Shown piece after piece: positions 7,007-33,653 of a DNA stretch of 64,000 nucleotides. Under the pieces are notes generated by a model that saw only the letters and a program-made list of their open reading frames with translations, searched no databases and was not told the DNA's origin. Position 1 is the first letter of the stretch, and each line of letters opens with the position of its first letter. The DNA comes from a phage, in sequence record NC_135728.1; one strand, given 5' to 3'. The position numbers were made by a program, and so were the translations under genes.

Positions 7007-9604
7007 TTAAAGGTACAATCCACGGTATTGAGCATAAAGGCCCAGACCGCGAAGGATTTCGCCAGAGTGATAGCCAACCGGATCAGAAACTGCCCAGCAG
7101 CCGTTTAAAACATTATCCCCATTAATGAAGTGGTGCTTTTGCAGTAGCTTCACACAGGCCTCTACAACAATATCTATTTGGGGTATTGTCTCTGAATACC
7201 CGCACAGACCTAGCCAGCAGCAACCTGCAAGCCATTCACCTACCACCCACATCCTGTCGCCTCTATCTTGATAAGAATATCCCCCAGAGGTGTTAAAGTC
7301 TGTAGGTAGGTTTCCTGAATGAGATGACTGGAATCTGTTGAGAAACCATGCCCATTTCTGGCAGAACAGGAATAATCTTTCATCAACAGGTTCTTTATGT
7401 TTCTTGAGCTCATAGATTGTGCGGCACGCAGCAACAAAAGATCTTGACTGGAGTTTAGAGTTATCTACCATCTCCCACCAACCAGTCAACCCTTCATTAC
7501 CTCTTTGCCATACATAACGTGAGGCAACTGGACCCTCTGTCTTAAATGTATTATTATACCAGACTTGAGCGTCATACAGAAAGCCTATTGTATTTGACAA
7601 TCTATGGCGATCTATGTTTTCTGCACCCATGCAGTATACTGCTGGGTATTGCATGCCAGGGTAGGGCCAATTTGGCTTTTCCTCTAAGAGATAGTTTTCC
7701 TTATCTATCACCTTTCCGGCAGGGAACACACCTGGTGTGTGCCTGTATGCACCTTGCTTGTAGTTTCTGACATAGCAATCACCAACCTTAGCGGTTGATT
7801 CTGTCTTGCTTGCCATCCATACGCTAAACCATATTAGATAAGCATCCCTATCTGCAATATAGAACTGCGGCAGCGTGTTTACGCAGTACAGATCAAACAA
7901 GCCATTGCCTATCTGCCTGTCGCTTAGGCTGAAATCTACAGAGGTGAGTCCCTTAGGATTAGCAAAGAAAGGTTTAATCTCTTCTTCGGTGTGATGAGGT
8001 TGTGTCGGATCTAGTTTGAAATCTCCTAGAGTAAGAGTTTCTGTTATCCATTGTCCATTAGTGGCATATAGATCAGCATACCATAACCACCTATCTTTGT
8101 CAAGAAATTTGACCCTTACCATCTCATCATCTGATCGATAAGTTACTGAGTTTAAAGAAATCTCTCTCCCAAAATTGAAAGTTACTTTACCTCTTGCTAT
8201 ATTACAACGGGTGAAGTTGTCAGAGTGGTTGTAAATGTCGGTATCATACTGCATACTAACACTAGCGCCACCGCTTACGACAATGTTTTCCTCTTTAGGT
8301 AAGAGATACGGATTACCGTCTTTACCAACTACCTCTACGAAATCAGTAACCTTGGCAACTATTTCTGTTACCTCTGCCCCTCCAAAAGGAACCCCTATCC
8401 TGTACTGTTTTTTGTTATTGTTGCCATCATTAAGGATGAAATGTGGCTGGAACAGAACCCCTTCTCCTCCGAAATTCATAACAATTTCAGCATCTCTGCC
8501 TATTTTGTATGTAGTCCCTTTTTGAATTATTTCGCAAGGCTGGCGTGCGTTCATTCTAAAATTGATATACCCGTCACTGTCCCTGCTCATGGCAGGAACT
8601 GTTCCTGCAACAAGGCAAGTACCATCTGTAAACGGTGCCTTAATCAACGTGGTCTTCCTAAACAGTTTGTCGTAGGCGTTTATATCACTGAAATTAAGCA
8701 ATTTGTTGTAAGACTGTTTAAACGCGGTGTAATACTTTTCCTCACCTGTCAAGGTGTAGAGTTGATAACAAGCGTCACACCACATTTCTTCCCCGTCCAA
8801 CTCTGGGGCCTGATTATCTGCAACCACGTTTATAGGATTTACAATTACAGGGGATCCTGCAGGTATCACCGATCCGCCCTGCTCTTGAGGTAATCTTACA
8901 CAATAGGTCACCTTGTGGCTGCCTGTAACACCCTTATCTTGTAATTGGATTGTGCCGAACTCTACAGACGTATGACCACTGTCGGCTATGCTACCGTTAG
9001 CCCAATAGCGGTTACCATCCCATGCTATGTACCACTCAACCCCCCAACTTAATCCGGATGTTGTCCAATCTGGGTTAGCATCTGTGCCACCGTAAACATC
9101 GGAGTCTACAGTATCTCTTCCTAACACACCGTTATACGCTTGGAATGCCTTGTCAAGGTATTCCCCCCATGTCGGAGATCCAGCTGGGATTTTTCCTCTA
9201 CCGTTGGTAAAAGACACCACCACATCTTTAAACCCACCATGTGATGGAACCCCATCTGTGGATAGAGGGTAGTGGGACAATCTTTGCATTTTACTTTCTA
9301 CTGCATATGCACCCAGAAGATGACTATTGTAAGCTTCCCAAGCATCTTTTGCCCTATCCAGATAGAAATCGCTTTTCGATGCCCTGTATGCTTCAATGTA
9401 TCCCAGAATCAACACAGCTTGGGACTCATGCATTGCCCAATCATTATTTATCTTATTACCTGCCCACCCTGCAGCTATAAGACCATCAGGGTTTACTAAC
9501 TTATTTTGAGTATGGGTGTTGGTAATACCTGTGTTGTTATCGAGGCACTTCCTGTGCCCCTCAATCATCTGAAATACGTTATCAATGTTGTGTTGAATAC
9601 GCAT
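7007..9604 (-). CDS. tail fibre/tailspike-like protein (865 aa), possible carbohydrate-active domain
   Basis: Large ORF between baseplate and fibre genes; composition suggests a glycoside-hydrolase-like fold (weak, by eye). Confidence 0.4.
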   Translation of the reverse strand: MRIQHNIDNVFQMIEGHRKCLDNNTGITNTHTQNKLVNPDGLIAAGWAGNKINNDWAMHESQAVLILGYIEAYRASKSDFYLDRAKDAWEAYNSHLLGAYAVESKMQRLSHYPLSTDGVPSHGGFKDVVVSFTNGRGKIPAGSPTWGEYLDKAFQAYNGVLGRDTVDSDVYGGTDANPDWTTSGLSWGVEWYIAWDGNRYWANGSIADSGHTSVEFGTIQLQDKGVTGSHKVTYCVRLPQEQGGSVIPAGSPVIVNPINVVADNQAPELDGEEMWCDACYQLYTLTGEEKYYTAFKQSYNKLLNFSDINAYDKLFRKTTLIKAPFTDGTCLVAGTVPAMSRDSDGYINFRMNARQPCEIIQKGTTYKIGRDAEIVMNFGGEGVLFQPHFILNDGNNNKKQYRIGVPFGGAEVTEIVAKVTDFVEVVGKDGNPYLLPKEENIVVSGGASVSMQYDTDIYNHSDNFTRCNIARGKVTFNFGREISLNSVTYRSDDEMVRVKFLDKDRWLWYADLYATNGQWITETLTLGDFKLDPTQPHHTEEEIKPFFANPKGLTSVDFSLSDRQIGNGLFDLYCVNTLPQFYIADRDAYLIWFSVWMASKTESTAKVGDCYVRNYKQGAYRHTPGVFPAGKVIDKENYLLEEKPNWPYPGMQYPAVYCMGAENIDRHRLSNTIGFLYDAQVWYNNTFKTEGPVASRYVWQRGNEGLTGWWEMVDNSKLQSRSFVAACRTIYELKKHKEPVDERLFLFCQKWAWFLNRFQSSHSGNLPTDFNTSGGYSYQDRGDRMWVVGEWLAGCCWLGLCGYSETIPQIDIVVEACVKLLQKHHFINGDNVLNGCWAVSDPVGYHSGEILRGLGLYAQYRGLYL

Positions 9605-9605
9605 C

Positions 9606-10274
9606 TTAGATAGCTCCTGCGATAATCAGTGCTCCGTACCAAGTTAACCCGTTGTCGTAGGTTTCCAACTTGAAAATGTCTGTTGCACCAGCTGTAAATG
9701 TTAGGATAGGATCTCTTCCGTAGGCCCATTTAACATTATCAGGCCAATAGACTTTGTTGCCGCCAGCGGTCTGAGTAATGCATACGGTTATAGTTCTCGC
9801 CACCCCTTCAAGACCTTCTGTTTGATTTTCAAAAGAGATTGTGGTATTTGAAGTTAGTCGAACTTTAAAGGTGTCTGCAACTTCAAGATCCATATCAAGC
9901 TGACCACCGATAGATCCGTAATCAACTATCCTGCCAGAAGAAGTTGCAGCAAGCTCACCAAAAACAGACCATGCTTTTGCAGACACACCCCCAGCACCCT
10001 CTACAGTGGAGTCTGGGAGGATTATTTTAGGATAATCCCCGTTCCACGTGTAGTAGCGCTTGGTCTCTGGATCATAGGCAAAGTCCTTCTTGCTCTTAAG
10101 ATAACCACCCTCTGTGAAATAGATTATTTTAGTAATGCTGAGATCGTTGACAACATCATCAATCTTAGCCTTTCTTGTCCCATCAGTCTGGTTGACAACC
10201 AAGAAGTCATCACTCAGGACTGTTTCTGCATCTTCAAGATCTGGAATTGGTATTGTAGGATAAGCTACAGCCAT
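9606..10274 (-). CDS. tail fibre-related protein (222 aa) sharing the N-terminal attachment motif of the long fibre
   Basis: N-terminus LSDDFLVVNQTDGTRKAKIDDVV parallels DDYLVVQQPDLTRRVKIGDVV of the 1479-aa protein. Confidence 0.5.
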   Translation of the reverse strand: MAVAYPTIPIPDLEDAETVLSDDFLVVNQTDGTRKAKIDDVVNDLSITKIIYFTEGGYLKSKKDFAYDPETKRYYTWNGDYPKIILPDSTVEGAGGVSAKAWSVFGELAATSSGRIVDYGSIGGQLDMDLEVADTFKVRLTSNTTISFENQTEGLEGVARTITVCITQTAGGNKVYWPDNVKWAYGRDPILTFTAGATDIFKLETYDNGLTWYGALIIAGAI

Positions 10275-10283
10275 GATTTCTCC

Positions 10284-11000
10284 TTAGTTAACATCAATAG
10301 CACGACCAGACTGGTTGGCAATAGCCTCATCATTGGAGGTAGCAATAACACCAGAGTATTCGCGCTCATCTGGAGCAAGCGTCCAGGTATTGCGGTTAAT
10401 GGTTTGTTCTGCCTCAGTCATCAGCAGATCTTTATCCTGAGTCAACAGAGAGCCTACAGGGATCGGGTTTTCCATCTCAGGACCAGCATACTGGTTCCAC
10501 CATGTGGCATCTCCGGTTCTAGGCAATCTGAAGTTAATCAGGTAGTACAGTTTATTAGCCCACTTAATCCAACCTTCATCATCACAGAGAGAGGTTGTCC
10601 CAGAATCAGGCTGTGGGTAGGTAAACTGATCAAGACCTACGAAAGCCAGCCTTACAATCTCGTTCTCTTTGGTAACAACCTCAAAGAACGCTTGGTATGT
10701 TCTCGATCTTCGATCCATAGTAGACTGGAAGTTTATGATGTTTAGCACATCCGGCTCTTGTCTTGCCACTTCCATGATCTTGTTATCAAGAACAGTCTTC
10801 ATGACCTTCTTACTGAGAAAGTCCATATAAGGGAAGCCAAACAACTCGTCAAAGTACCAGCTCCCCTTCCACGTATTAAACCTCATCCACAAGCGCTGGC
10901 GCAGACTTACCTGGTTTGAATCTATCAACTCAAGACCTTTGTCTATCGCCAAATCGCCTGTCTGTGGGTCCATCAATATATCACTATAAAGCGTAGCCAT
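10284..11000 (-). CDS. baseplate protein (238 aa), putative
   Basis: ORF track; position between central spike and fibre genes. Confidence 0.4.
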   Translation of the reverse strand: MATLYSDILMDPQTGDLAIDKGLELIDSNQVSLRQRLWMRFNTWKGSWYFDELFGFPYMDFLSKKVMKTVLDNKIMEVARQEPDVLNIINFQSTMDRRSRTYQAFFEVVTKENEIVRLAFVGLDQFTYPQPDSGTTSLCDDEGWIKWANKLYYLINFRLPRTGDATWWNQYAGPEMENPIPVGSLLTQDKDLLMTEAEQTINRNTWTLAPDEREYSGVIATSNDEAIANQSGRAIDVN

Positions 11001-26980: not shown

Positions 26981-28102
26981 TTAGATAAAACGCTTGAACA
27001 TAGAAGGTGATGAGATTGATGGAATCACACAAGGAAGTGCTACCTCCTCTTTCTCCAGGAAATTAATTGCAGAAGCTACACAGTCAGCCCAGTCGTCTTT
27101 TCTGTTAAATGTTGATCTTTCCCCGTTGAATTTTTCAAGTTCGGTCAGAAATGCTTCCAGAGTATCAGGATGGAAACTGGATTTTACAATCCTCACCATC
27201 CCTTGTTGGGCAAGATTGGCAAAAGGTGAGAACCTTGTCAGTTTAGACTTGTTGGAAGGCATTGGGTCTTCTTCAACCCTGAACCCTTCTGCGAGCAAGG
27301 ATCTGGATGAGGTTAAGAACTCACTCTTACCTGCCTGACCAGGGTCCACAGAGAATACGATTATGCAATCATCACCATCAAACTGCGCCTGTTTCCTGAT
27401 GATCACATCTCGTTCACCAGCCTTTTTACAGAACTTGCCTTCCAGACCTGTGGAATACCTCCCGTCATCCACGTTTTCAGGACAATAATCCCCTGACAGG
27501 TAATAAAAGCCGTCGCTATCTTTACTTACCTTAATACTGGCAGTAAAGTCAGGAAATTTATTGCCAGAAGTTCTCTCGGTTCCTGCCTTATCCCATGCCC
27601 TGCAAGATACTGATCCAAGGGGTACTCTATCGGCATCACGAAGGAAAGATCTTTGAAAATAGTTTGCACCCTCAGGCTTTGCAAACCAGTTACCATGGAG
27701 AAGCTGAGCTTTTTCCAGCTCTGGTAGACCTTCGAGGAAAGCAAGGTATTCTGGGTTGTCTCTCAAACAGACAGGATTATCAAATATTGTTGCGCCTATG
27801 AACGAGAATGACAACGGTCTTGGCTTGATCTCTACACCCAGTCCGTTAACCGTGGTGTATTTCTCTATCAACTCTTCCTTAGAGTCTCCCCAAATAAATT
27901 CACCGTCGCGTCGGATAAAATATCTTTTCTTACCACATTTCTCCGGATCTGGATACCCTTCATCGTCCAACCACCATCTAACCAGTTTGGCAAGCATGTG
28001 TTCTGAATCAGGGTTACAGCTGATAACCATCCTTGATGGATACTTTGACTGAGATCGCAGACGAGACATCAGATAGTCTATCTGCTCCCATTCAAATTGT
28101 GT
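26981..28102 (-). CDS. terminase large subunit, exon 2 (nuclease half); 5' boundary approximate
   Basis: Frame continues upstream of the annotated Met (TQFEWEQIDYL-MSRLRS...); contains MVISCNPD motif; different frame from exon 1, reconciled by removing the intron. Confidence 0.75.
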   Translation of the reverse strand, partial: TQFEWEQIDYLMSRLRSQSKYPSRMVISCNPDSEHMLAKLVRWWLDDEGYPDPEKCGKKRYFIRRDGEFIWGDSKEELIEKYTTVNGLGVEIKPRPLSFSFIGATIFDNPVCLRDNPEYLAFLEGLPELEKAQLLHGNWFAKPEGANYFQRSFLRDADRVPLGSVSCRAWDKAGTERTSGNKFPDFTASIKVSKDSDGFYYLSGDYCPENVDDGRYSTGLEGKFCKKAGERDVIIRKQAQFDGDDCIIVFSVDPGQAGKSEFLTSSRSLLAEGFRVEEDPMPSNKSKLTRFSPFANLAQQGMVRIVKSSFHPDTLEAFLTELEKFNGERSTFNRKDDWADCVASAINFLEKEEVALPCVIPSISSPSMFKRFI

Positions 28103-28421
28103 CGTTTATGTTCGGGCAAGGTCGCTAGTCTTGCCCCGCCATTTTCAGGCAGCTGCATGTCTCCATGCAGACCAGACTATATCTTATAAGCGACAACAAC
28201 CGCTTACCCTCCCGTTTCGAATCGCTTGATTCTACGTCTCTCGACTAGTCGTTGAACGTTCATCCTCTCGGATGCTTCGCTGCGGATTATCTAAATTAAC
28301 ACACTGTTACCCTACCTTCGATCTCTCTTCGAAGCCTCTATCATGTTACCATGACAGGTTGGTGGTGTCAATAATAAAGATTTCCCCGCAATTAGGGAGG
28401 TTTTACGAGAGCTGCAAATTA
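28103..28421 (-). ncRNA. group I self-splicing intron (ORF-less, about 319 nt) interrupting the large terminase gene
   Basis: Minus-strand sense contains the four conserved group I core elements: P AATTGCGGGGAAA (plus 28381-28400 region), Q AATCCGCAGC (28279-28288), R GTTCAACGACTAGTC (28243-28257), S AAGATATAGTCTGG (28172-28185); in-frame stop right after the 5' splice site; intron ends in G. Confidence 0.8.
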
Positions 28422-28847
28422 ACCCTCATCGAAGCAAACCATGGTGTACTCAAGCCCCTGATGGTTAAGCTTATCTTGTACATACTCCATGTGGCAGTAT
28501 TTTACAACAGCTCCCTTTTTGCTTCTATCCCACTTACCAGTGTTCGGATCAAACCGTGGAAAAATGAACTTATGATCCTTCTCTCTGAACTTTGGCTTAA
28601 TGTTTTCAGGCAGATCACTATAAATAGCTACTGCTTTAGGCCATAGTCCACCCTCACCTTCCAACTGTGGGGTTGTTCTTCGGAACATAACCACAGAGCT
28701 GTGGGGGTCATCAATAATTTTAAGTGGCATCAACTGCAAGAGGAACGACTTGCCAGACCCTGCGGCACCTCCGATTACCAAAATATCTGCATCGTTTTCT
28801 AGGATCATCTTCTGCTTTTCAGAACACGGTCCGTAAATCTTAGACAT
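28422..28847 (-). CDS. terminase large subunit, exon 1 (ATPase half)
   Basis: Walker A GGAAGSGKS and Walker B VCFDE; ends at ...VCFDEG followed by an intron-borne stop. Confidence 0.8.
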
Positions 28848-29134
28848 TAACCTCTCTCCTTTGGAAACAGTGTTCTAATATAGTCTTGCAAAATGATCAA
28901 TTTAGCTCTATCATTACTACAAGACAGATTATTATCCCTCATAATGCCAGAATTCACCGCATCTGGCGCACCTTTCTTCAAAGGCATAGCTCTAGCAGGT
29001 GGTTTCATGGCACCTTCTGGGGGTTTAACAATCAACCTTCCTACATCTGGAGTGTCAATCCTATATTCTCTCTCAACGCTGGTTGCACACCCACATAATA
29101 ACAAGCACACAATAAACAGTGTAGCAACTCTCAT
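28847..29134 (-). CDS. o-spanin-like outer-membrane lipoprotein (Rz1-like)
   Basis: Signal peptide with lipobox LLCGC, proline-rich mature region (KPPEGAMKPPARAMP); follows and overlaps by 4 nt the i-spanin-like gene. Confidence 0.6.
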   Translation of the reverse strand: MRVATLFIVCLLLCGCATSVEREYRIDTPDVGRLIVKPPEGAMKPPARAMPLKKGAPDAVNSGIMRDNNLSCSNDRAKLIILQDYIRTLFPKERG

Positions 29135-29529
29135 CGATCCTCCTGATTGATACTCTCATTATAAATATCTATAAGCTGATCAGGGAGTGTTGACTTCTTA
29201 CCTTCAGGTGATTGGAGGTAGATAGTCTGCTTTTCTCTACCTGCCCTCTCAGCTATATTTAATTTATCCTGCAGATCAGAAAGAGATTTTTCAAGGTTTT
29301 TAACCTCCTCTGCGTGGCCCATTTTAATTTTGTCGGCCTGCTTTTGTTGCTGATCAAGGATCCGTTCCCACTTTAACTCTGTTGCTGACACACCCTCTTG
29401 GTAGGCATCATTAAGCTTAGAGTTAAACCAATACACGGCCCCAAGATAAGCTGTACCTATAGCCGCTGCAAAAACTAAACCTTTTATGATCCCTCTATAC
29501 CTACTAAGCCATGTTAAACCTGAAATCAT
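29131..29529 (-). CDS. i-spanin-like protein (Rz-like)
   Basis: N-terminal transmembrane segment followed by a charged coiled-coil-like periplasmic domain; paired with a downstream lipoprotein. Confidence 0.6.
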   Translation of the reverse strand: MISGLTWLSRYRGIIKGLVFAAAIGTAYLGAVYWFNSKLNDAYQEGVSATELKWERILDQQQKQADKIKMGHAEEVKNLEKSLSDLQDKLNIAERAGREKQTIYLQSPEGKKSTLPDQLIDIYNESINQEDR

Positions 29530-29544
29530 TTTAAGGCTCCAGAA

Positions 29545-29580
29545 ACGAAAAAACCCCGCAGCTATACAGCTAACGGGGCG
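29545..29580 (-). terminator. rho-independent terminator
   Basis: ccccgcagctatacagctaacgggg hairpin followed on the minus strand by TTTTTTCGTTT. Confidence 0.55.
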
Positions 29581-29634
29581 GGTTAAAATTGAGTAACCTA
29601 AATAGATCGAAACTAACTAAAAGGAGACTAATAC

Positions 29635-29904
29635 TTATCGAGGCACTCGGTGGATGATTCTAACAGTAACTGCATTTTCATTCATCAAGTATGCATCTAC
29701 ATCTCTGTAAATATAAAACTTCTGCTCACTATCAACAACACAAGCTACCGCCCCTTCAGAGTTGTCTTCAAAAAAGACCACCACTGCATCGCAGCTGAGT
29801 TCATGATATGACTCTCGAAGATTTACAGCCAGAGGATTGAAATCGTCACGAAAATCTACAGTATTGGTTGGATTTACACGCTCTACAATTTTAAGTGTAT
29901 ACAT
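29635..29904 (-). CDS. hypothetical protein (89 aa)
   Basis: ORF track. Confidence 0.45.
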   Translation of the reverse strand: MYTLKIVERVNPTNTVDFRDDFNPLAVNLRESYHELSCDAVVVFFEDNSEGAVACVVDSEQKFYIYRDVDAYLMNENAVTVRIIHRVPR

Positions 29905-29950
29905 TTTAAAGGTTCCTTTCGTTTGTATATGTTTAAAGTATAACTAAAGG

Positions 29951-30027
29951 TGGTCTCCACGGAGTGATTCGAACACTCGACCTCCTGATCCCAAATCAGG
30001 CGCTCTACCAAGCTGAGCTACGCGGAG
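29951..30027 (-). tRNA. tRNA-Pro (anticodon UGG)
   Basis: Manual fold: acceptor CTCCGCG/CGTGGAG, D-arm GCTCAGCTTGGTAGAGC, anticodon loop TTTGGGA, T-loop TTCGAAT, encoded CCA. Confidence 0.8.
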
Positions 30028-30038
30028 TATTTATAATT

Positions 30039-30113
30039 TGGTGGCCCTGGGTGGAATTGAACCACCATCTGGCGATTATGAGTCGCTTGCTTGAACCTTC
30101 CAGCTACAGGGCC
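30039..30113 (-). tRNA. tRNA-Met (anticodon CAU; could alternatively be a lysidine-modified Ile2-type)
   Basis: Manual fold: acceptor GGCCCTG/CAGGGCC, anticodon loop CTCATAA, T-arm GGTGGTTCAATTCCACC, encoded CCA. Confidence 0.75.
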
Positions 30114-30114
30114 A

Positions 30115-30190
30115 TGGTGCTGATGGCAGGACTTGAACCTGCAACCTATTGATTACAAATCAATTGCACTGCCAATTGTGCTACATCAGC
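30115..30190 (-). tRNA. tRNA-Thr (anticodon UGU)
   Basis: Manual fold: acceptor GCTGATG/CATCAGC, anticodon stem ATTGA/TCAAT with loop TTTGTAA, T-arm GCAGGTTCAAGTCCTGC, encoded CCA. Confidence 0.85.
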
Positions 30191-30196
30191 AAAAAG

Positions 30197-30294
30197 GTGC
30201 TAGGCGGTGGAATCGAACCACCTATGTATTCAACGACTACCTCGTCTATTTTCAGGATTAAAAATCCTCGCCCTTGCCAAAGGGCTTACCTAGC
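30197..30294 (-). tRNA. atypical tRNA-like gene (about 98 nt; canonical acceptor and T-arm, aberrant anticodon/variable region, CCA not fully encoded)
   Basis: Acceptor GCTAGGT/GCCTAGC and T-arm GGTGG-TTCGATT-CCACC are canonical; only a 4-bp AGGA/TCCT stem with loop TTTTTAA and a ~30-nt region before the T-arm; positions 8-9 are AA. Confidence 0.4.
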
Positions 30295-30392
30295 TCAGTA
30301 TGTTGACCATGTTGCTAGTCGGCGATGACGACTGTAACATTTGATAATCCGGTTCTGCTTCCGGCTTTCGCTTAATTACAAGGTCAACAATG

Positions 30393-30483
30393 TGGCGGAG
30401 AGTAATGGAATCGAACCATCATCGAGTCATCCTCAATGGGACGGTTTTCAAGACCGCTTGAGCACCATTGCTCCCTACCCTCC
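30393..30483 (-). tRNA. tRNA-Ser (anticodon UGA), class II with long variable arm
   Basis: Manual fold: acceptor GGAGGGT/ACTCTCC, anticodon stem GCGGT/ACCGT with loop CTTGAAA, long variable arm, T-loop TTCGATT, encoded CCA. Confidence 0.75.
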
Positions 30484-30598
30484 TTTATAAATTATACTGA
30501 TAATGACACTGATTTTCGAGCAGTTAGTGACTAGTATAAACGACGATAAATATCAATGCCATTATCTGTATTATTTACGCATCTAAAAAATATAAATT

Positions 30599-30685
30599 TG
30601 GTGGGGAGTGGTGGAGTCGAACCACCCGAGTCGCAATGACAATAGATTTACAGTCTACACCGCTACCTCTACGGGATAACTCCCC
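30599..30685 (-). tRNA. tRNA-Tyr (anticodon GUA), class II
   Basis: Manual fold: acceptor GGGGAGT/ACTCCCC, anticodon stem GTAGA/TCTAT with loop CTGTAAA, T-arm GGTGGTTCGACTCCACC, encoded CCA. Confidence 0.8.
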
Positions 30686-30689
30686 AATT

Positions 30690-30764
30690 TGGCACCCCGT
30701 ACTGGACTCGAACCAGTGTCAACGGCTTAGAAGGCCGCTGCTTTATCCACTAAGCTAACAGGGC
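30690..30764 (-). tRNA. tRNA-Arg (anticodon UCU)
   Basis: Manual fold: D-arm GCTTAGTGGATAAAGC, anticodon stem GCGGC/GCCGT with loop CTTCTAA, T-arm ACTGGTTCGAGTCCAGT, encoded CCA. Confidence 0.8.
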
Positions 30765-30822
30765 ACTGGGTGGCTTTCTTTTACACCTTAGCCGCCAGAA
30801 AAGGTGGGAGACCATGTTTACA

Positions 30823-30852
30823 ATATTACACTGTTAAGCAAAGTTTGTCAAG
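30823..30852 (-). promoter_or_regulatory. sigma70-like promoter upstream of the tRNA cluster
   Basis: Minus-strand TTGACA (plus 30847-30852), 17-18 bp spacer, TAATAT (plus 30823-30828). Confidence 0.5.
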
Positions 30853-30860
30853 AAAATATT

Positions 30861-31199
30861 TTAGCTATTGCTAACAGGCTGTATTTCTGTAGTAAATGGC
30901 ATAAAAGGTGCTGGTTTTTCAGCCTCTTCTACTACCACCTCTTCCTCTTCACCAAACATCTCATCATATTCTTCCTGCATTCGGTCTGCCTTATCAAGAA
31001 CATACTCTGCAATGCTTTGACGAATATTTTGTTTGGTTTTCGGGTCCAACATCAGCTCTCTTAAAACTTTGTGAGCTTCTGGAACCATCGCTATGAAAGA
31101 TTCCTTCATATCAAGGATGTTCTTCTCTAGCTGAATGGCGTTGGACTCCTCTTTCAGAGGTCTGCCTCTACGGCGACGCTTTTTAGTTGTATCCGCCAT
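30861..31199 (-). CDS. small AT-hook-like DNA-binding protein with acidic C-terminal tail (112 aa)
   Basis: Start chosen at internal Met (MADTTKKRRRRGRPLK) with GGAGG RBS 6 nt upstream and its own promoter; RGRP AT-hook motif; C-terminus EEYDEMFGEEEEVVVEEAE. Confidence 0.55.
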   Translation of the reverse strand: MADTTKKRRRRGRPLKEESNAIQLEKNILDMKESFIAMVPEAHKVLRELMLDPKTKQNIRQSIAEYVLDKADRMQEEYDEMFGEEEEVVVEEAEKPAPFMPFTTEIQPVSNS

Positions 31200-31227
31200 G
31201 TTTCCTCCATTATCACGTGATAGGTGG

Positions 31228-31256
31228 ATTTTATCATAGCAAATACTGATTGTCAA
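31228..31256 (-). promoter_or_regulatory. sigma70-like promoter for the AT-hook protein gene
   Basis: Minus-strand TTGACA, 17-bp spacer, TAAAAT, followed by GGAGG and ATG. Confidence 0.55.
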
Positions 31257-31545
31257 GTTCGCCGCAGGGTGGTATTCCCTGCGACTTGTCCAGCGTCCTG
31301 GACCAGCAAGACCCAACAAGTGGGTTACCAGAGGCCTATTACCCGCGCTTCGGCCCGACCTTGTTACAGGTTGGCTGGGGTCACATCGTCATGTGCTGGC
31401 TGCCCCTACCATTTTAAGTGTGGTGCACTATCAAGCCCTCTGAGGGGAACTCAGCTTTCTCCGAACCCTGTTTCAAAGCATCCGGAGATAAAGCCATCAA
31501 ATTCATCTTTAAATTGGATATTCATCATGATACACGAAAACAACC

Positions 31546-31788
31546 TCATTGTAAAGCACAAATAAATAAAACATACTTAATTTGTTTGTTATCAGGCTCA
31601 GGGTAGAAGTAGAAGATCTTGCTATCACCGATCTGAACACCACCATCCCAACAGCATAGCCCATAACCTGTATTCATACAAGCTAAGTCGTTGGCAAAAT
31701 CTATTGCATCATCCAGTGCACGAAATTCACCTTCATCTTCTAAATAATCCTCATTCATGGAACGAAAAACGAGCTTAACCTTAAACAT
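31546..31788 (-). CDS. hypothetical protein (80 aa)
   Basis: ORF track. Confidence 0.4.
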   Translation of the reverse strand: MFKVKLVFRSMNEDYLEDEGEFRALDDAIDFANDLACMNTGYGLCCWDGGVQIGDSKIFYFYPEPDNKQIKYVLFICALQ

Positions 31789-31864
31789 AGCATTACCTGT
31801 AGACCTCGTAAGTTAAAATTGCATCACATCATATTGCAGATCTTATCAGGTAACACTATTTTTG

Positions 31865-32074
31865 TCAACAGATTCCGGCCTTATCCTTCCTGTCTGCGTA
31901 TTCTTTAATCGCAACCTCATCTGCATTAGTGACCAGGTCTTCAAAGTAACTCTCAAGCTCCTCATCAATGTCAGGAGACCAGCTCTTTTTCCTGTCAGTG
32001 TGAATTGCAGACTTGTTGAACTTATTACAGTTCTTTGCTACCGGGTTGTTCATTAAGCGCTCCTCAGCGTTCAT
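31865..32074 (-). CDS. hypothetical protein (69 aa)
   Basis: ORF track; overlaps the start of the downstream gene. Confidence 0.35.
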   Translation of the reverse strand: MNAEERLMNNPVAKNCNKFNKSAIHTDRKKSWSPDIDEELESYFEDLVTNADEVAIKEYADRKDKAGIC

Positions 32075-32642
32075 AGTAAATCTTATTTAACATTACCTCA
32101 TCTTTTGCAGAAAGAATACCGAAATATGCATCACCGAATCTACCTGCAACAACCTCTGCATGATACATCACTTCGTTAATATCGTCAAGAGTGATAACTG
32201 GATGACCGTATCTCTCTGAGTATTGTCTCAGAGTGCGATGTAGAGAGTCATCATCATAGGCAGACTTTTTAATATCGCAAACACGACGAATAGCCTTGAT
32301 GTCGAAAAACCCTGTACGATACCAACCAAGAAAAAGGTTTCGTGCAGTGTCAACATCTACATCAATACCATCAAGAACCTTATCTACAAGATAGCTGTCA
32401 TCCTTTGGACCTGCTTCCTTAGTGCGAATGTAGTTGCCATCTTTTCCAGGTGACAGCTCCTTCTCATCACCAACCTGCATGCCATCATTTGGCGGTGTTA
32501 ACCACTTATCCGGATGCTTACGATCACGAGCGTTAGAATGATTACGCTGGAAACCTGGCTTCCACTTGAAAGTTTTCTCCATCTGTTCTTCATTCTGATA
32601 ACGTTTTGCAATCTTTTCACGGTCATCTTTGCGTGGACTCAT
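32064..32642 (-). CDS. hypothetical protein (192 aa)
   Basis: ORF track; GGAGG RBS upstream of ATG. Confidence 0.5.
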   Translation of the reverse strand: MSPRKDDREKIAKRYQNEEQMEKTFKWKPGFQRNHSNARDRKHPDKWLTPPNDGMQVGDEKELSPGKDGNYIRTKEAGPKDDSYLVDKVLDGIDVDVDTARNLFLGWYRTGFFDIKAIRRVCDIKKSAYDDDSLHRTLRQYSERYGHPVITLDDINEVMYHAEVVAGRFGDAYFGILSAKDEVMLNKIYYER

Positions 32643-33145
32643 AGCTGCCTCCTCTTCAAGTTATAGAAAAACTCACTGTATCGCTTTGTAACGAGCTTTT
32701 CTATCAAACTGGTGCGATTGCCTTACTTGGTATAGTTTATATGGCTGTGGAGCGATTTAGGGGCCTCATTGTCCGTTTCCACACATAAACTTTATCCAAA
32801 CTCGCGCGGGAATCTCTCAACCGACTCCTTACGGCGCTGGCAAGCTTTCGTCGGTGGTCCACATTAGTGCTCGGCCTTTGGCCTGCGCTATCGCTTCGCT
32901 CCCACACATGTTAACAGACCTGCATGTATGCACTTCTGTTATTGTGTGCACTATGGAGGCCCGGCATCTCGCCCCTCGTAGGCGAGTGCCAATGAAGGGC
33001 CGACACTACCTATAGAAAGTAATAAATTTAAAACATGGTACTTAGGATCTAGTATATTCTACATAAGTTAAGTATATGTACTTAGTACCATAAGTACTAG
33101 ATCTTTTATTTTTTATTATTTAGTTATTTTAGTTATATTCTTTAT

Positions 33146-33302: not shown

Positions 33303-33653
33303 CTAACCAGTTGTTGACATTCGAATAACTTCTTCTGGTGGCAAAACTTTGGAAAATGTGCATCTTTTACCTCTCCCTTGTGTGGATGTTTCAACAACTC
33401 CTGCACATTCTAAAGTTTTAACGCACGCTGCTGCTTTTGTTTTCTTTATCCCAACATCTGCTGCAATTTTCCTTGTGCTTGGTGTGAAGTGTGAATTTCC
33501 TCCAAGCTTATACCAGTTGTGCAGGTAGCAGTATACAATCTTGTCATACAAGTCAAGAACAACAACCTCCCCAGTTGTGTCATTCAAAACTTTTGACATA
33601 GATAGTATTTCAAGGGGGACTTTAAGATATAGCAGCTTATCCCCATCTTTCAT
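33303..33653 (-). CDS. putative DNA-binding protein (116 aa)
   Basis: ORF track; helix-turn-helix-like segment (TPSTRKIAADVGIKKTKAAACVKTLECAGVV); 75 bp from the palindromic repeat array. Confidence 0.4.
   Translation of the reverse strand: MKDGDKLLYLKVPLEILSMSKVLNDTTGEVVVLDLYDKIVYCYLHNWYKLGGNSHFTPSTRKIAADVGIKKTKAAACVKTLECAGVVETSTQGRGKRCTFSKVLPPEEVIRMSTTG

What the first reader, a model, noticed from the sequence alone, without database searches (positions are those of the whole stretch)
30861..31199. AT-hook protein with poly-acidic tail under its own promoter
A small protein combining a basic RRRRGRP AT-hook with an acidic C-terminal tail (EEYDEMFGEEEEVVVEEAE). This resembles nucleoid-protein antagonists or DNA-mimic-bearing factors. 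It is driven by a dedicated sigma70-like promoter just downstream of GC-rich island A.
Basis: partly seen in the sequence, partly recalled or inferred. Interest (0 to 1): 0.35.

Follow-up and report, generated by a model that had tools for sequence, protein, structure and literature searches.

The report
Likely missing small terminase of rV5-like phages
This small phage gene, labelled "hypothetical" in every genome checked, is most likely the unrecognised DNA-recognition (small terminase) subunit of the genome-packaging motor of rV5-like phages, with a short basic AT-hook-like arm where the usual DNA-binding domain would be.

Summary
A 112-aa ORF lies on the minus strand (31199→30861). It has K6-KRRRRGRP-14, an acidic stretch (residues 76-94) and an 11/12 σ70 promoter with an extended −10. 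The window is an rV5-like phage (Vequintavirus), and the ORF is rV5 gp74, "hypothetical" everywhere.

The nucleoid-antagonist or DNA-mimic reading has no support. Four independent lines point to a minimal small terminase (TerS):
- **Profile comparison.** The gp74 family matches a TerS family anchored on the solved NV1/PaP3 TerS structures (88.5%; controls ≤1.5%).
- **Structure.** A confident helical-hairpin model (pLDDT 90.5) has NV1/PaP3 TerS chains as its six best PDB matches (~1 Å).
- **Synteny.** TerL lies downstream on the same strand in 24/24 informative loci, and abuts the gene in one relative.
- **No competitor.** No TerS is annotated in any record examined, and gp74 is the only TerS-like ORF in this window.

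The canonical HTH is absent. An invariant GRP arm replaces it, analogous to the minor-groove N-terminal arm of HK97 TerS. The acidic disordered tail parallels that of PaP3 TerS.

Oligomerisation, DNA binding and TerL binding are untested. Confidence is about 0.6. I rate it a new variant of a known kind, of moderate interest.

The parts
30861..31199 (-). gp74-like ORF (112 aa plus stop), the candidate small terminase (TerS)
   Evidence: phrog_3330 E 8e-47; identical to rV5 gp74 and its Vequintavirus orthologues
31228..31256 (-). σ70-type promoter (P074 of rV5): -35 TTGACA 31256-31251, 17-nt spacer containing TG, -10 TAAAAT 31233-31228
   Evidence: published in Kropinski 2013 Table S4; a >=10/12 equivalent is conserved in 14 of 19 related loci
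31204..31208 (-). Shine-Dalgarno GGAGG, 4 nt upstream of the ATG
   Evidence: annotated as RBS in phage Mangalyan
31155..31199 (-). N-terminal basic arm, residues 1-15 (net charge +7 over residues 1-16), predicted disordered; proposed DNA (minor-groove) contact
   Evidence: analogy with the HK97 TerS N-terminal arm (PMC11331095)
31158..31169 (-). R11-G12-R13-P14, the AT-hook-like core; GRP is invariant or nearly so in the family
   Evidence: sub-threshold Pfam AT_hook hits in 5 of 22 relatives
30954..31154 (-). Helical hairpin, residues 16-82 (helix 16-51, turn D52-K56, helix 57-82); proposed oligomerisation core
   Evidence: AF2 models (core pLDDT 90.5, pTM 0.60); the six best Foldseek PDB hits are NV1/PaP3 TerS chains
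30987..31115 (-). Residues 29-71, the segment that aligns to the alpha4-alpha5 hairpin of TerS families
   Evidence: hhalign 88.5%, E 2.7e-6 with controls <=1.5%; BLASTP 15/32 identical to NV1 TerS; tblastn and HMM of the TerS family against the window hit only this place
30918..30983 (-). Acidic linker, residues 73-94 (11 D/E, net -10); acidic/Asn-rich composition conserved but sequence variable; largely predicted disordered
   Evidence: parallels the acidic disordered tail (residues 122-152) of PaP3 TerS
30882..30899 (-). C-terminal tip motif P101-F-T-T-E-I106 (P, F, T104 and I invariant in Vequintavirinae); proposed TerL-docking or stalk-forming peptide
   Evidence: distant relatives carry G-[IM]-V-[IV]-[ND]-[FLW]-G here instead, shared with the TerS-like protein P0047
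30823..30851 (-). Second σ70-type promoter (PtRNA of rV5), TTGACA-17-TAATAT, directly after the stop codon
29951..30764 (-). tRNA array of 7 calls (Arg, Tyr, Ser, an odd 99-nt call, Thr, Met, Pro) lying between the ORF and the packaging genes
28847..29529 (-). i-spanin (29529-29131) and o-spanin (29134-28847), directly upstream of TerL
   Evidence: Rz-like spanin PHROGs
28458..28847 (-). First exon of the large terminase (TerL), 2.0 kb downstream of the ORF on the same strand
   Evidence: the exon ends at the group I intron 28153-28457

Best explanation
The ORF (rV5 gp74) is the so far unannotated small terminase subunit (TerS) of rV5-like phages (Vequintavirinae and more distant relatives), in a minimal 13-kDa form.

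Shown: it has a confident two-helix hairpin that matches the alpha4-alpha5 oligomerisation hairpin of the NV1/PaP3 small terminases in both sequence and structure. It is always encoded upstream of the large terminase gene on the same strand.

Inferred: the hairpins assemble into a ring of roughly 8-12 subunits. The fifteen-residue basic N-terminal arms (KKRRRRGRP), which replace the usual helix-turn-helix domain, reach into the DNA minor groove at AT-rich packaging-initiation sequences, as the N-terminal arm of HK97 TerS does. The disordered acidic linker with its conserved PFTTEI tip recruits or regulates TerL, or alternatively forms the stalk of the ring. The strong σ70-type promoter P074 starts the transcription unit gp74 - tRNAs - spanins - TerL.
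For: 1. Remote homology. The gp74-family profile (A4, 22 sequences) was compared with family A3. A3 is itself homologous to the solved TerS structures 7JOQ (E 1.6e-10) and 6W7T (E 5.7e-8). hhalign gives 88.5% probability and E 2.7e-6 over 43 columns, covering gp74 residues 29-71. Reversed and 30 column-shuffled controls give <=1.5%. gp74 compared directly with NV1 TerS is 15/32 identical.

2. PHROGs. After its own family, the only recurrent hit is 'terminase small subunit': phrog_2538 in 4 members and phrog_7344 in 1, out of 22.

3. Reciprocity. A tblastn of the TerS-like P0047 against 50,697 phage genomes finds one annotated TerS that overlaps its TerL. Every other listed hit among the remaining 171 records lies in a Vequintavirinae-type phage, at gp74-homologue coordinates wherever I could check. 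An HMM of A3 scored against all 684 stop-to-stop segments of the window hits only gp74 (E 7e-4; next best 0.29).

4. Structure. The core model has pLDDT 90.5. Of 350,542 PDB chains, the six best Foldseek hits are NV1/PaP3 TerS chains (probability 0.91-1.00, rmsd 0.9-1.2 Å, 32-40% identity). E217 TerS also appears, at rank 18.

5. Synteny. TerL is downstream on the same strand in 24 of 24 loci with enough flanking DNA. Gaps range from 4 bp to 6.8 kb. In L008 the gene's last codons carry the GGAGG for the abutting TerL. The larger gaps examined are filled with tRNA arrays, HNH endonuclease genes and spanins.

6. No TerS is annotated in any Vequintavirinae record examined, and every name found for this protein is 'hypothetical'.

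7. Architecture. PaP3 TerS has the same hairpin followed by an acidic disordered tail. HK97 TerS lacks a defined HTH and puts a basic N-terminal arm into the minor groove next to an essential A:T-rich tract.
Against: - The similarity to known TerS covers only about 40 residues of a helical hairpin. Database-corrected E-values are weak: 0.25-0.41 for the profile against PDB and 0.13-0.65 for Foldseek.
- The HTH domain that a review calls the most conserved TerS feature is absent (model). No beta-stalk is predicted.
- At 13.1 kDa the protein is below the usual 15-21 kDa.
- In the window itself the gene is 2 kb from TerL.
- In several genera the gene sits inside the tRNA array behind a strong σ70 promoter. 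That arrangement would also suit an early gene. No expression timing data were found.
- The one Vequintavirinae phage with mapped termini (KPP-1, 514-bp direct repeats) has them far from the loci described here. There is therefore no nearby packaging site to support the assignment.
- Oligomerisation, DNA binding and TerL binding are all untested.
Confidence: 0.62

Rival explanations
1. An early DNA-binding host-takeover or regulatory protein. The AT-hook arm would bind AT-rich DNA, and the acidic tail would act as a DNA mimic or decoy for H-NS/StpA or another nucleoid protein. Alternatively it would be a transcription factor for the downstream tRNA, lysis and packaging unit.
For: An RGRP core with a basic flank and an acidic tail are present and conserved. 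A strong σ70 promoter with an extended -10 is conserved directly upstream in most relatives. One GenBank record calls the homologue a 'putative regulatory protein'. The position ahead of lysis and late genes resembles that of late regulators in other phages (my own knowledge).
Against: There is no similarity to any known regulator, DNA mimic or H-NS antagonist family in Pfam or PHROGs, even at permissive thresholds. The acidic segment is sequence-variable and predicted disordered. This reading does not explain the specific sequence and structure match to the TerS hairpin. It also does not explain the direct abutment and likely translational coupling with TerL in L008. In rV5, σ70-like TGnTAAAAT promoters also precede structural genes 36 and 51, so the promoter type does not imply an early function.
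Confidence: 0.15
2. A TerS-derived accessory protein rather than the TerS itself. It might modulate packaging or TerL, or be a remnant whose DNA-recognition role has been lost, as proposed for sequence-independent packagers such as T4 or E217. The true specificity factor would lie elsewhere or be absent.
For: It has only the hairpin plus tails. It has no HTH and no stalk, and it is smaller than solved TerS proteins. T4-like and E217 TerS bind DNA weakly or not at all in vitro.
Against: The invariant GRP arm and the conserved C-terminal tip argue for retained, selected interactions. No other TerS candidate was found in the window or annotated in the relatives examined.
Confidence: 0.12
3. An RNA-binding protein that uses the arginine-rich arm. 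It would be tied to the tRNA array in which it is embedded in many genera (tRNA maturation or protection), or act as a lambda-N-like antiterminator for the downstream unit.
For: In Seunavirus-, Mydovirus- and Certrevirus-like loci the gene is flanked on both sides by tRNA genes. The N-terminus is an arginine-rich stretch. A structured GC-rich non-coding island lies just upstream in Vequintavirus.
Against: Distant family members have no neighbouring tRNAs but still sit next to TerL (L005, L008, L031). The protein is acidic overall (pI 4.9) with a confidently folded hairpin, unlike the disordered basic N proteins. The GC-rich island is confined to Vequintavirus, whereas the protein family is much wider.
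Confidence: 0.06

Closest known systems
Small terminases of Pseudomonas phages NV1 and PaP3 (PDB 7JOQ, 6W7T)
   Same: The alpha4-turn-alpha5 hairpin matches: 15/32 identical to NV1, Foldseek rmsd about 1 Å, and these are the top PDB hits. Both are followed by an acidic disordered C-terminal tail. Both genes are encoded upstream of TerL.
   Different: NV1/PaP3 TerS have a three-helix N-terminal HTH domain (residues 18-63) and a beta-strand that forms a nine-stranded barrel. gp74 has neither. Instead it has a 15-residue basic arm with an RGRP core, and its acidic segment precedes a conserved hydrophobic tip. gp74 has 112 aa against about 152-157.
HK97 small terminase (gp1) bound to DNA (PMC11331095)
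   Same: It is a TerS without a defined HTH domain. A basic N-terminal arm (K4, R5, R7) lies in the DNA minor groove beside an essential A:T-rich tract. The N-terminus MADKRIRSDS... compares with MADTTKKRRRRGRP... in gp74; the HK97 N-terminal sequence is quoted from my memory.
   Different: No sequence homology to HK97 TerS was detected here. HK97 recognition also needs a C-terminal helix with Arg128 in the major groove, and the DNA passes through the ring tunnel. None of that can be said for gp74. HK97 has no GRP core.
T4-like (44RR) gp16 small terminase
   Same: It is a myovirus TerS whose crystal structure is a simple helical hairpin without a canonical HTH.
   Different: No detectable sequence or Foldseek match was found here. 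T4 gp16 is encoded immediately upstream of gp17 and has no AT-hook-like arm.
AT-hook motif (Pfam PF02178; HMGA proteins)
   Same: The core is R-G-R-P preceded by a run of K/R. Distant relatives read KRGRGRP[RKP]K.
   Different: There is a single copy at the extreme N-terminus. It is followed by an acidic helix cap (KEES) rather than a basic flank. It scores below the Pfam threshold. Minor-groove binding is untested.

Membership tests
Phage small terminase (TerS) | Central oligomerisation core made of a helical hairpin | tested here: met
   The AF2 core model has pLDDT 90.5 with helices 16-51 and 57-82. The six best PDB Foldseek hits are NV1/PaP3 TerS. hhalign to a TerS family gives 88.5%, with controls <=1.5%.
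[quoted passage not shown]
   Only 15 disordered basic residues precede the hairpin. Exceptions without a defined HTH are known: HK97, P22 and 44RR.
Phage small terminase (TerS) | Gene upstream of, and co-oriented with, the large terminase gene | tested here: met
   This holds in 24 of 24 informative loci. The gap is 4 bp in L008, 392 bp in L005 and 2.0 kb in the window, with tRNAs and spanins inserted.
Phage small terminase (TerS) | Protomer of about 15-21 kDa with a flexible C-terminal moiety | tested here: inconclusive
   The protein is 13.1 kDa, slightly small. Residues 83-112 are predicted disordered, which is consistent.
Phage small terminase (TerS) | Ring oligomer of 8-12 subunits | not testable with these tools
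   No multimer prediction or experiment was available.
Phage small terminase (TerS) | Binds phage DNA at the packaging site, and binds or regulates TerL | not testable with these tools
   This needs EMSA or footprinting, pull-downs and genetics.
AT-hook (Pfam PF02178) | G-R-P core, usually R-G-R-P, flanked by basic residues | tested here: met
   R11-G12-R13-P14 is preceded by KKRRR. GRP is invariant or nearly so in the family. The C-terminal flank is L-K then acidic, so only one side is basic.
AT-hook (Pfam PF02178) | Score at or above the Pfam gathering threshold (17.4 bits) | tested here: not met
   The window protein has no hit at E<=10. Five of 22 relatives hit below threshold, the best at 16.1 bits.
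AT-hook (Pfam PF02178) | Binding to the minor groove of AT-rich DNA | not testable with these tools
   This needs EMSA with netropsin or distamycin competition.
DNA-mimic or H-NS-antagonist phage proteins (e.g. Ocr, Arn, T7 gp5.5) | Homology to a known family, or a folded acidic surface that imitates DNA | tested here: not met
   No such Pfam or PHROG hit was found. The acidic stretch is a variable linker predicted to be disordered.
Lambda-N-type arginine-rich antiterminators | Small, basic, intrinsically disordered protein with an N-terminal arginine-rich motif | tested here: not met
   An arginine-rich N-terminus is present, but the protein is acidic (pI 4.9) and has a confidently folded hairpin.

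The most novel reading that the evidence does not exclude
A ring of TerS subunits would recognise the packaging site purely through multiple AT-hook-type arms inserted into AT-rich minor grooves, with no HTH domain at all. The acidic tail would compete with DNA for the basic arms, or for TerL, acting as a built-in switch. This would be a DNA-recognition mode not yet described for terminases. It would also identify the packaging-specificity factor for the whole Vequintavirinae subfamily.
Probability: 0.3. Interest if true: 0.6.

Novelty: new variant of a known kind. Interest (0 to 1): 0.42.

Why it matters
rV5-like phages (Vequintavirinae) are among the most frequently isolated coliphages and are candidates for therapy and biocontrol (PMC8594841). 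Even so, none of the records or papers I examined names their small terminase. Carefully curated genomes open at the spanin/TerL operon without one.

Assigning gp74 (phrog_3330) as TerS would fill that gap for at least the 220 phage records with homologues found here. It would give a handle on how these phages choose DNA for packaging, which bears on transduction risk and on engineering. It would also add a very small, HTH-less TerS with an AT-hook-type arm to the debate on how small terminases read DNA.

If the assignment is wrong, the protein is still a conserved, strongly expressed DNA-binding-type factor that is worth a knock-out.

Tried and rejected
- **Pfam on the protein.** Only noise was returned (NCAB2, Adeno_L433K).
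- **Full-length AF2 model.** The model (pLDDT 69, pTM 0.29) gave no Foldseek hit in PDB and only noise in BFVD. Trimming to the hairpin and using the more diverse alignment was needed.
- **The search for related loci.** With the close alignment it returned only Vequintavirinae-sized contigs.
- **Rfam.** Nothing was found in the GC-rich island upstream at E<=1. The island is restricted to Vequintavirus, so I did not tie it to the protein's function.
- **Other TerS candidates.** gp68 (89 aa, directly upstream of the spanins) and the other neighbours gp75-gp79 hit only unknown-function PHROGs or unrelated ones. No counterpart of gp68 appears in the compact distant loci. An HMM of the TerS family scored no other ORF in the window.
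- **Literature.** Searches for a named TerS in rV5-like phages found only generic statements. The phi92 and PVP-SE1 papers were not held. A preprint that mentioned terS together with 'Vequintavirinae' described its work on phage Bas33, which I believe is T5-like rather than rV5-like (my own knowledge), and it gave nothing on rV5-like TerS.
- **Packaging site.** I looked for a genome terminus next to the gene. The only mapped termini (KPP-1, 514-bp repeats) lie in a cluster of small genes far from it. Another report calls a Vequintavirus headful. The packaging mode therefore remains unclear.
- **Expression timing.** No expression time-course for this subfamily was found.

Full report
**What is there**

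The window is a Vequintavirus (rV5-like myovirus). Positions 28000-33000 are 97-99% identical to rV5 and many relatives. The finding's coordinates hold a minus-strand ORF from ATG 31199 to stop 30861, encoding 112 aa.

- K6-KRRRRGRP-14 forms a basic N-terminal arm (net +7 over residues 1-16).
- Residues 73-94 carry 11 Asp/Glu (net -10).
- The acidic run is not the end of the protein. Eighteen further residues follow, ending in P-F-T-T-E-I-Q-P-V-S-N-S.

Upstream on the same strand are TTGACA-17 nt-TAAAAT with a TG extension (31256..31228; 11/12) and a GGAGG 4 nt before the ATG. A second promoter, TTGACA-17-TAATAT (30851..30823), follows the stop codon and precedes seven tRNA calls.

The gene order on this strand is gp74, tRNAs, an 89-aa ORF, i-spanin, o-spanin, TerL (interrupted by a group I intron), then portal, protease and capsid genes.

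The ORF is rV5 gp74 (13.1 kDa, pI 4.9, no function assigned). The two promoters are P074 and PtRNA of Kropinski et al. 2013.

**Is it a real, selected gene?**

Yes.

- It matches phrog_3330 (unknown function) at E 8e-47.
- It is found in 220 phage records, 114 of them at >=99% identity.
- An exhaustive HMMER search of 1.84 billion representative proteins gives only 22 relatives, all but three fragments and one 207-aa protein being 97-144 aa.
- Within Vequintavirinae, G12-R13-P14-L-K-E-E-S-N-A-I-Q-L and P101, F102, T104, I106 are invariant, while the acidic linker varies in sequence but stays acidic or Asn-rich.
- Across the whole family (down to about 22% identity), G-R-P remains invariant or nearly so.
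- A TTGACA-17-TG-n-TAnnnT promoter scoring >=10/12 lies upstream of the homologue in 14 of 19 loci from several genera, 17-28 nt before the start codon in most of them.

**What the protein looks like**

AlphaFold on the full length gives a disordered arm (1-15), two long helices (16-51 and 53-82) and a disordered tail, at modest confidence (pLDDT 69). The hairpin alone, with a more diverse alignment, gives a confident model (pLDDT 90.5, pTM 0.60; helices 16-51 and 57-82 in gp74 numbering).

**Evidence for a small terminase**

1. *Sequence profiles.*
   - A profile of close homologues already ranked the NV1 small terminase (PDB 7JOQ) second in PDB, though weakly (E 0.41).
   - The most distant family member, P0047 (207 aa), matches phrog_3330 (E 1e-7). 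It also matches phrog_2538 'terminase small subunit' (E 5e-9) and the solved NV1 and PaP3 TerS (E 0.0014 and 0.026).
   - Its own family (alignment A3) is clearly TerS. It matches 7JOQ at E 1.6e-10 and 6W7T at E 5.7e-8, has a GerE-type HTH in front, and members sit directly before a TerL-sized gene and a portal gene.
   - Profile-profile comparison of the gp74 family without P0047 (A4) against A3 gives 88.5% probability, E 2.7e-6, over 43 columns covering gp74 residues 29-71. Reversed and 30 column-shuffled controls never exceed 1.5%.
   - gp74 itself is 15/32 identical to NV1 TerS across the helix-turn-helix of the hairpin (P40-A71).
   - In PaP3 this region is the alpha4-alpha5 hairpin (residues 64-105), which together with a beta-strand forms the nonamer core (PMC7672466).

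2. *PHROG survey.* Among 22 family members, the only annotated families hit more than once are TerS families: phrog_2538 in four members and phrog_7344 in one.

3. *Reciprocity.* P0047 searched by tblastn against 50,697 phage genomes finds one annotated TerS that overlaps its TerL (Desulfofustis phage). Every other listed hit among the remaining 171 records lies in a Vequintavirinae-type phage, at gp74-homologue coordinates wherever I could check. An HMM of A3 scored against all 684 six-frame segments of this window picks gp74 alone (E 7e-4; next 0.29).

4. *Structure.* With the confident hairpin model, the six best of 350,542 PDB chains are NV1 and PaP3 TerS (probability 0.91-1.00, rmsd 0.9-1.2 Å over 40-41 columns, 32-40% identity). 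E217 TerS appears at rank 18. The E-values (0.13-0.65) are weak because the match is short.

5. *Synteny.*
   - In all 24 loci with enough downstream sequence, TerL lies downstream on the same strand.
   - The gap is 4 bp in a 110-kb metagenomic phage contig (L008), where the last codons (F-G-G-stop) contain the GGAGG for the TerL start.
   - The gap is 392 bp in L005, 1.4-2.2 kb in rV5-like and phiTE-like phages, and 3.5-6.8 kb where large tRNA arrays, HNH endonuclease genes and spanins intervene.
   - The conserved partner is TerL, not the tRNAs. L005, L008 and L031 have no tRNA next to the gene.

6. *No competitor.* No TerS is annotated in the Vequintavirinae records examined, including curated BASEL and CPT genomes. 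The rV5 paper names only TerL. Every source name for this protein is 'hypothetical', with one 'putative regulatory protein'. The neighbouring small ORFs have no TerS signal.

**How it would work (inferred)**

A review defines the TerS protomer as an HTH domain, a helical-hairpin oligomerisation core, a stalk and a flexible C-terminal moiety (PMC9611059). gp74 has the core and a flexible tail, but no HTH and no predicted stalk.

There are precedents for TerS without a defined DNA-binding domain: P22, 44RR and HK97. In the HK97 TerS-DNA structure, a basic N-terminal arm (K4, R5, R7) lies in the minor groove next to an A:T-rich tract that is essential for binding (PMC11331095).

I therefore propose the following.
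- gp74 rings present their KKRRRRGRP arms to AT-rich minor grooves at the packaging initiation region.
- The acidic linker plus the PFTTEI tip contacts TerL, or alternatively forms a stalk.

PaP3 TerS likewise carries an acidic, disordered C-terminal tail. Distant relatives replace PFTTEI with G-[IM]-V-[IV]-[ND]-[FLW]-G, a tip they share with the TerS-like P0047.

No intrinsic terminator is detected between gp74 and the tRNAs. The nearest terminator listed by the rV5 authors on this strand follows TerL. P074 may therefore head the gp74-tRNA-spanin-TerL unit. In rV5, the same TTGACA...TGGTAAAAT promoter type precedes structural genes 36 and 51. A σ70-type promoter here therefore does not imply an early-only gene.

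**Weak points**

- The homologous stretch is short and helical, and the database-level statistics are modest.
- The HTH criterion fails, and the protein is small.
- Its embedding in tRNA arrays behind a strong promoter would also fit an early function.
- No timing data exist.
- The only mapped termini in the subfamily are not near the gene.
- Only this 64-kb window, not the whole genome, was scanned for alternative TerS candidates.
- Oligomerisation, DNA binding and TerL binding are untested.

The AT-hook-like core is real and conserved, but it does not reach the Pfam threshold. The DNA-mimic or H-NS-antagonist idea has no supporting homology or structure. It remains a minority possibility that only experiments can exclude.

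**Verdict**

The ORF is most probably (about 0.6) the missing small terminase of rV5-like phages, in a minimal HTH-less form with an AT-hook-type arm. That makes it a new variant of a known kind. It is useful for annotating a large, practically important phage subfamily and of moderate mechanistic interest.

Noticed in passing
window 28153-28457 (-): A group I intron (Rfam RF00028, 79 bits) interrupts the large terminase gene after its first exon. Some relatives carry an HNH homing endonuclease here. The rV5 paper already reports TerL in three segments.
   Followed up: partly
window about 31260-31450, and a second island about 32725-33025: These are GC-rich non-coding islands (53-57% GC against about 40% around them). 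The first lies between gp75 and the P074 promoter. It folds moderately better than shuffles on the minus strand (z -2.5; plus strand -1.3). It has no Rfam match at E<=1 and is found only in Vequintavirus genomes (118 records, 90-99% identity). Its function is unknown.
   Followed up: partly
window 30196-30294 (-): ARAGORN calls a 99-nt 'tRNA-???' with a four-base anticodon (atcc). Relatives annotate it variously as tRNA-Lys, tRNA-OTHER or tRNA-TERM. Rfam's tRNA model does not reach threshold for it, nor for the tRNA-Ser at 30393-30483.
   Followed up: no
loci L022, L023, L025, L027, L028, L030 (positions about 9800-10600): In Seunavirus-, Mydovirus- and Certrevirus-like phages the gp74 homologue is flanked on both sides by tRNA genes within arrays of 20-25 tRNAs. 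tRNA-Cys ends about 90 nt upstream, and tRNA-Tyr starts 6 to about 210 nt downstream. The gene still keeps its own σ70-type promoter.
   Followed up: partly
search result, (records MG0656xx): Eighteen GenBank records named 'Campylobacter phage' with host Campylobacter jejuni are about 98% identical to E. coli rV5-like phages over this region. They are probably mislabelled or contaminant phages.
   Followed up: no
L012 (Pectobacterium phage phiTE) 4902-4960: The pseudo-ToxI RNA, a known escape locus against the ToxIN abortive-infection system, lies between the gp74 homologue and TerL. This is the same insertion-prone interval that holds tRNAs and HNH genes in relatives.
   Followed up: no
window 33303-33653 (-): rV5 gp79 (116 aa) has conflicting labels. 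PHROG calls it a 'replication initiation protein' (E 3e-79). GenBank relatives call it a 'putative transcriptional regulator'. The rV5 paper calls it a 'structural protein (MS evidence)'.
   Followed up: no
L034 (Klebsiella phage KPP-1) about 8300-8830: The reported 514-bp direct terminal repeat of this Vequintavirinae phage lies at a strand-switch region among small genes. Another paper calls a Vequintavirus a headful packager. The packaging mode of the subfamily is unsettled.
   Followed up: partly
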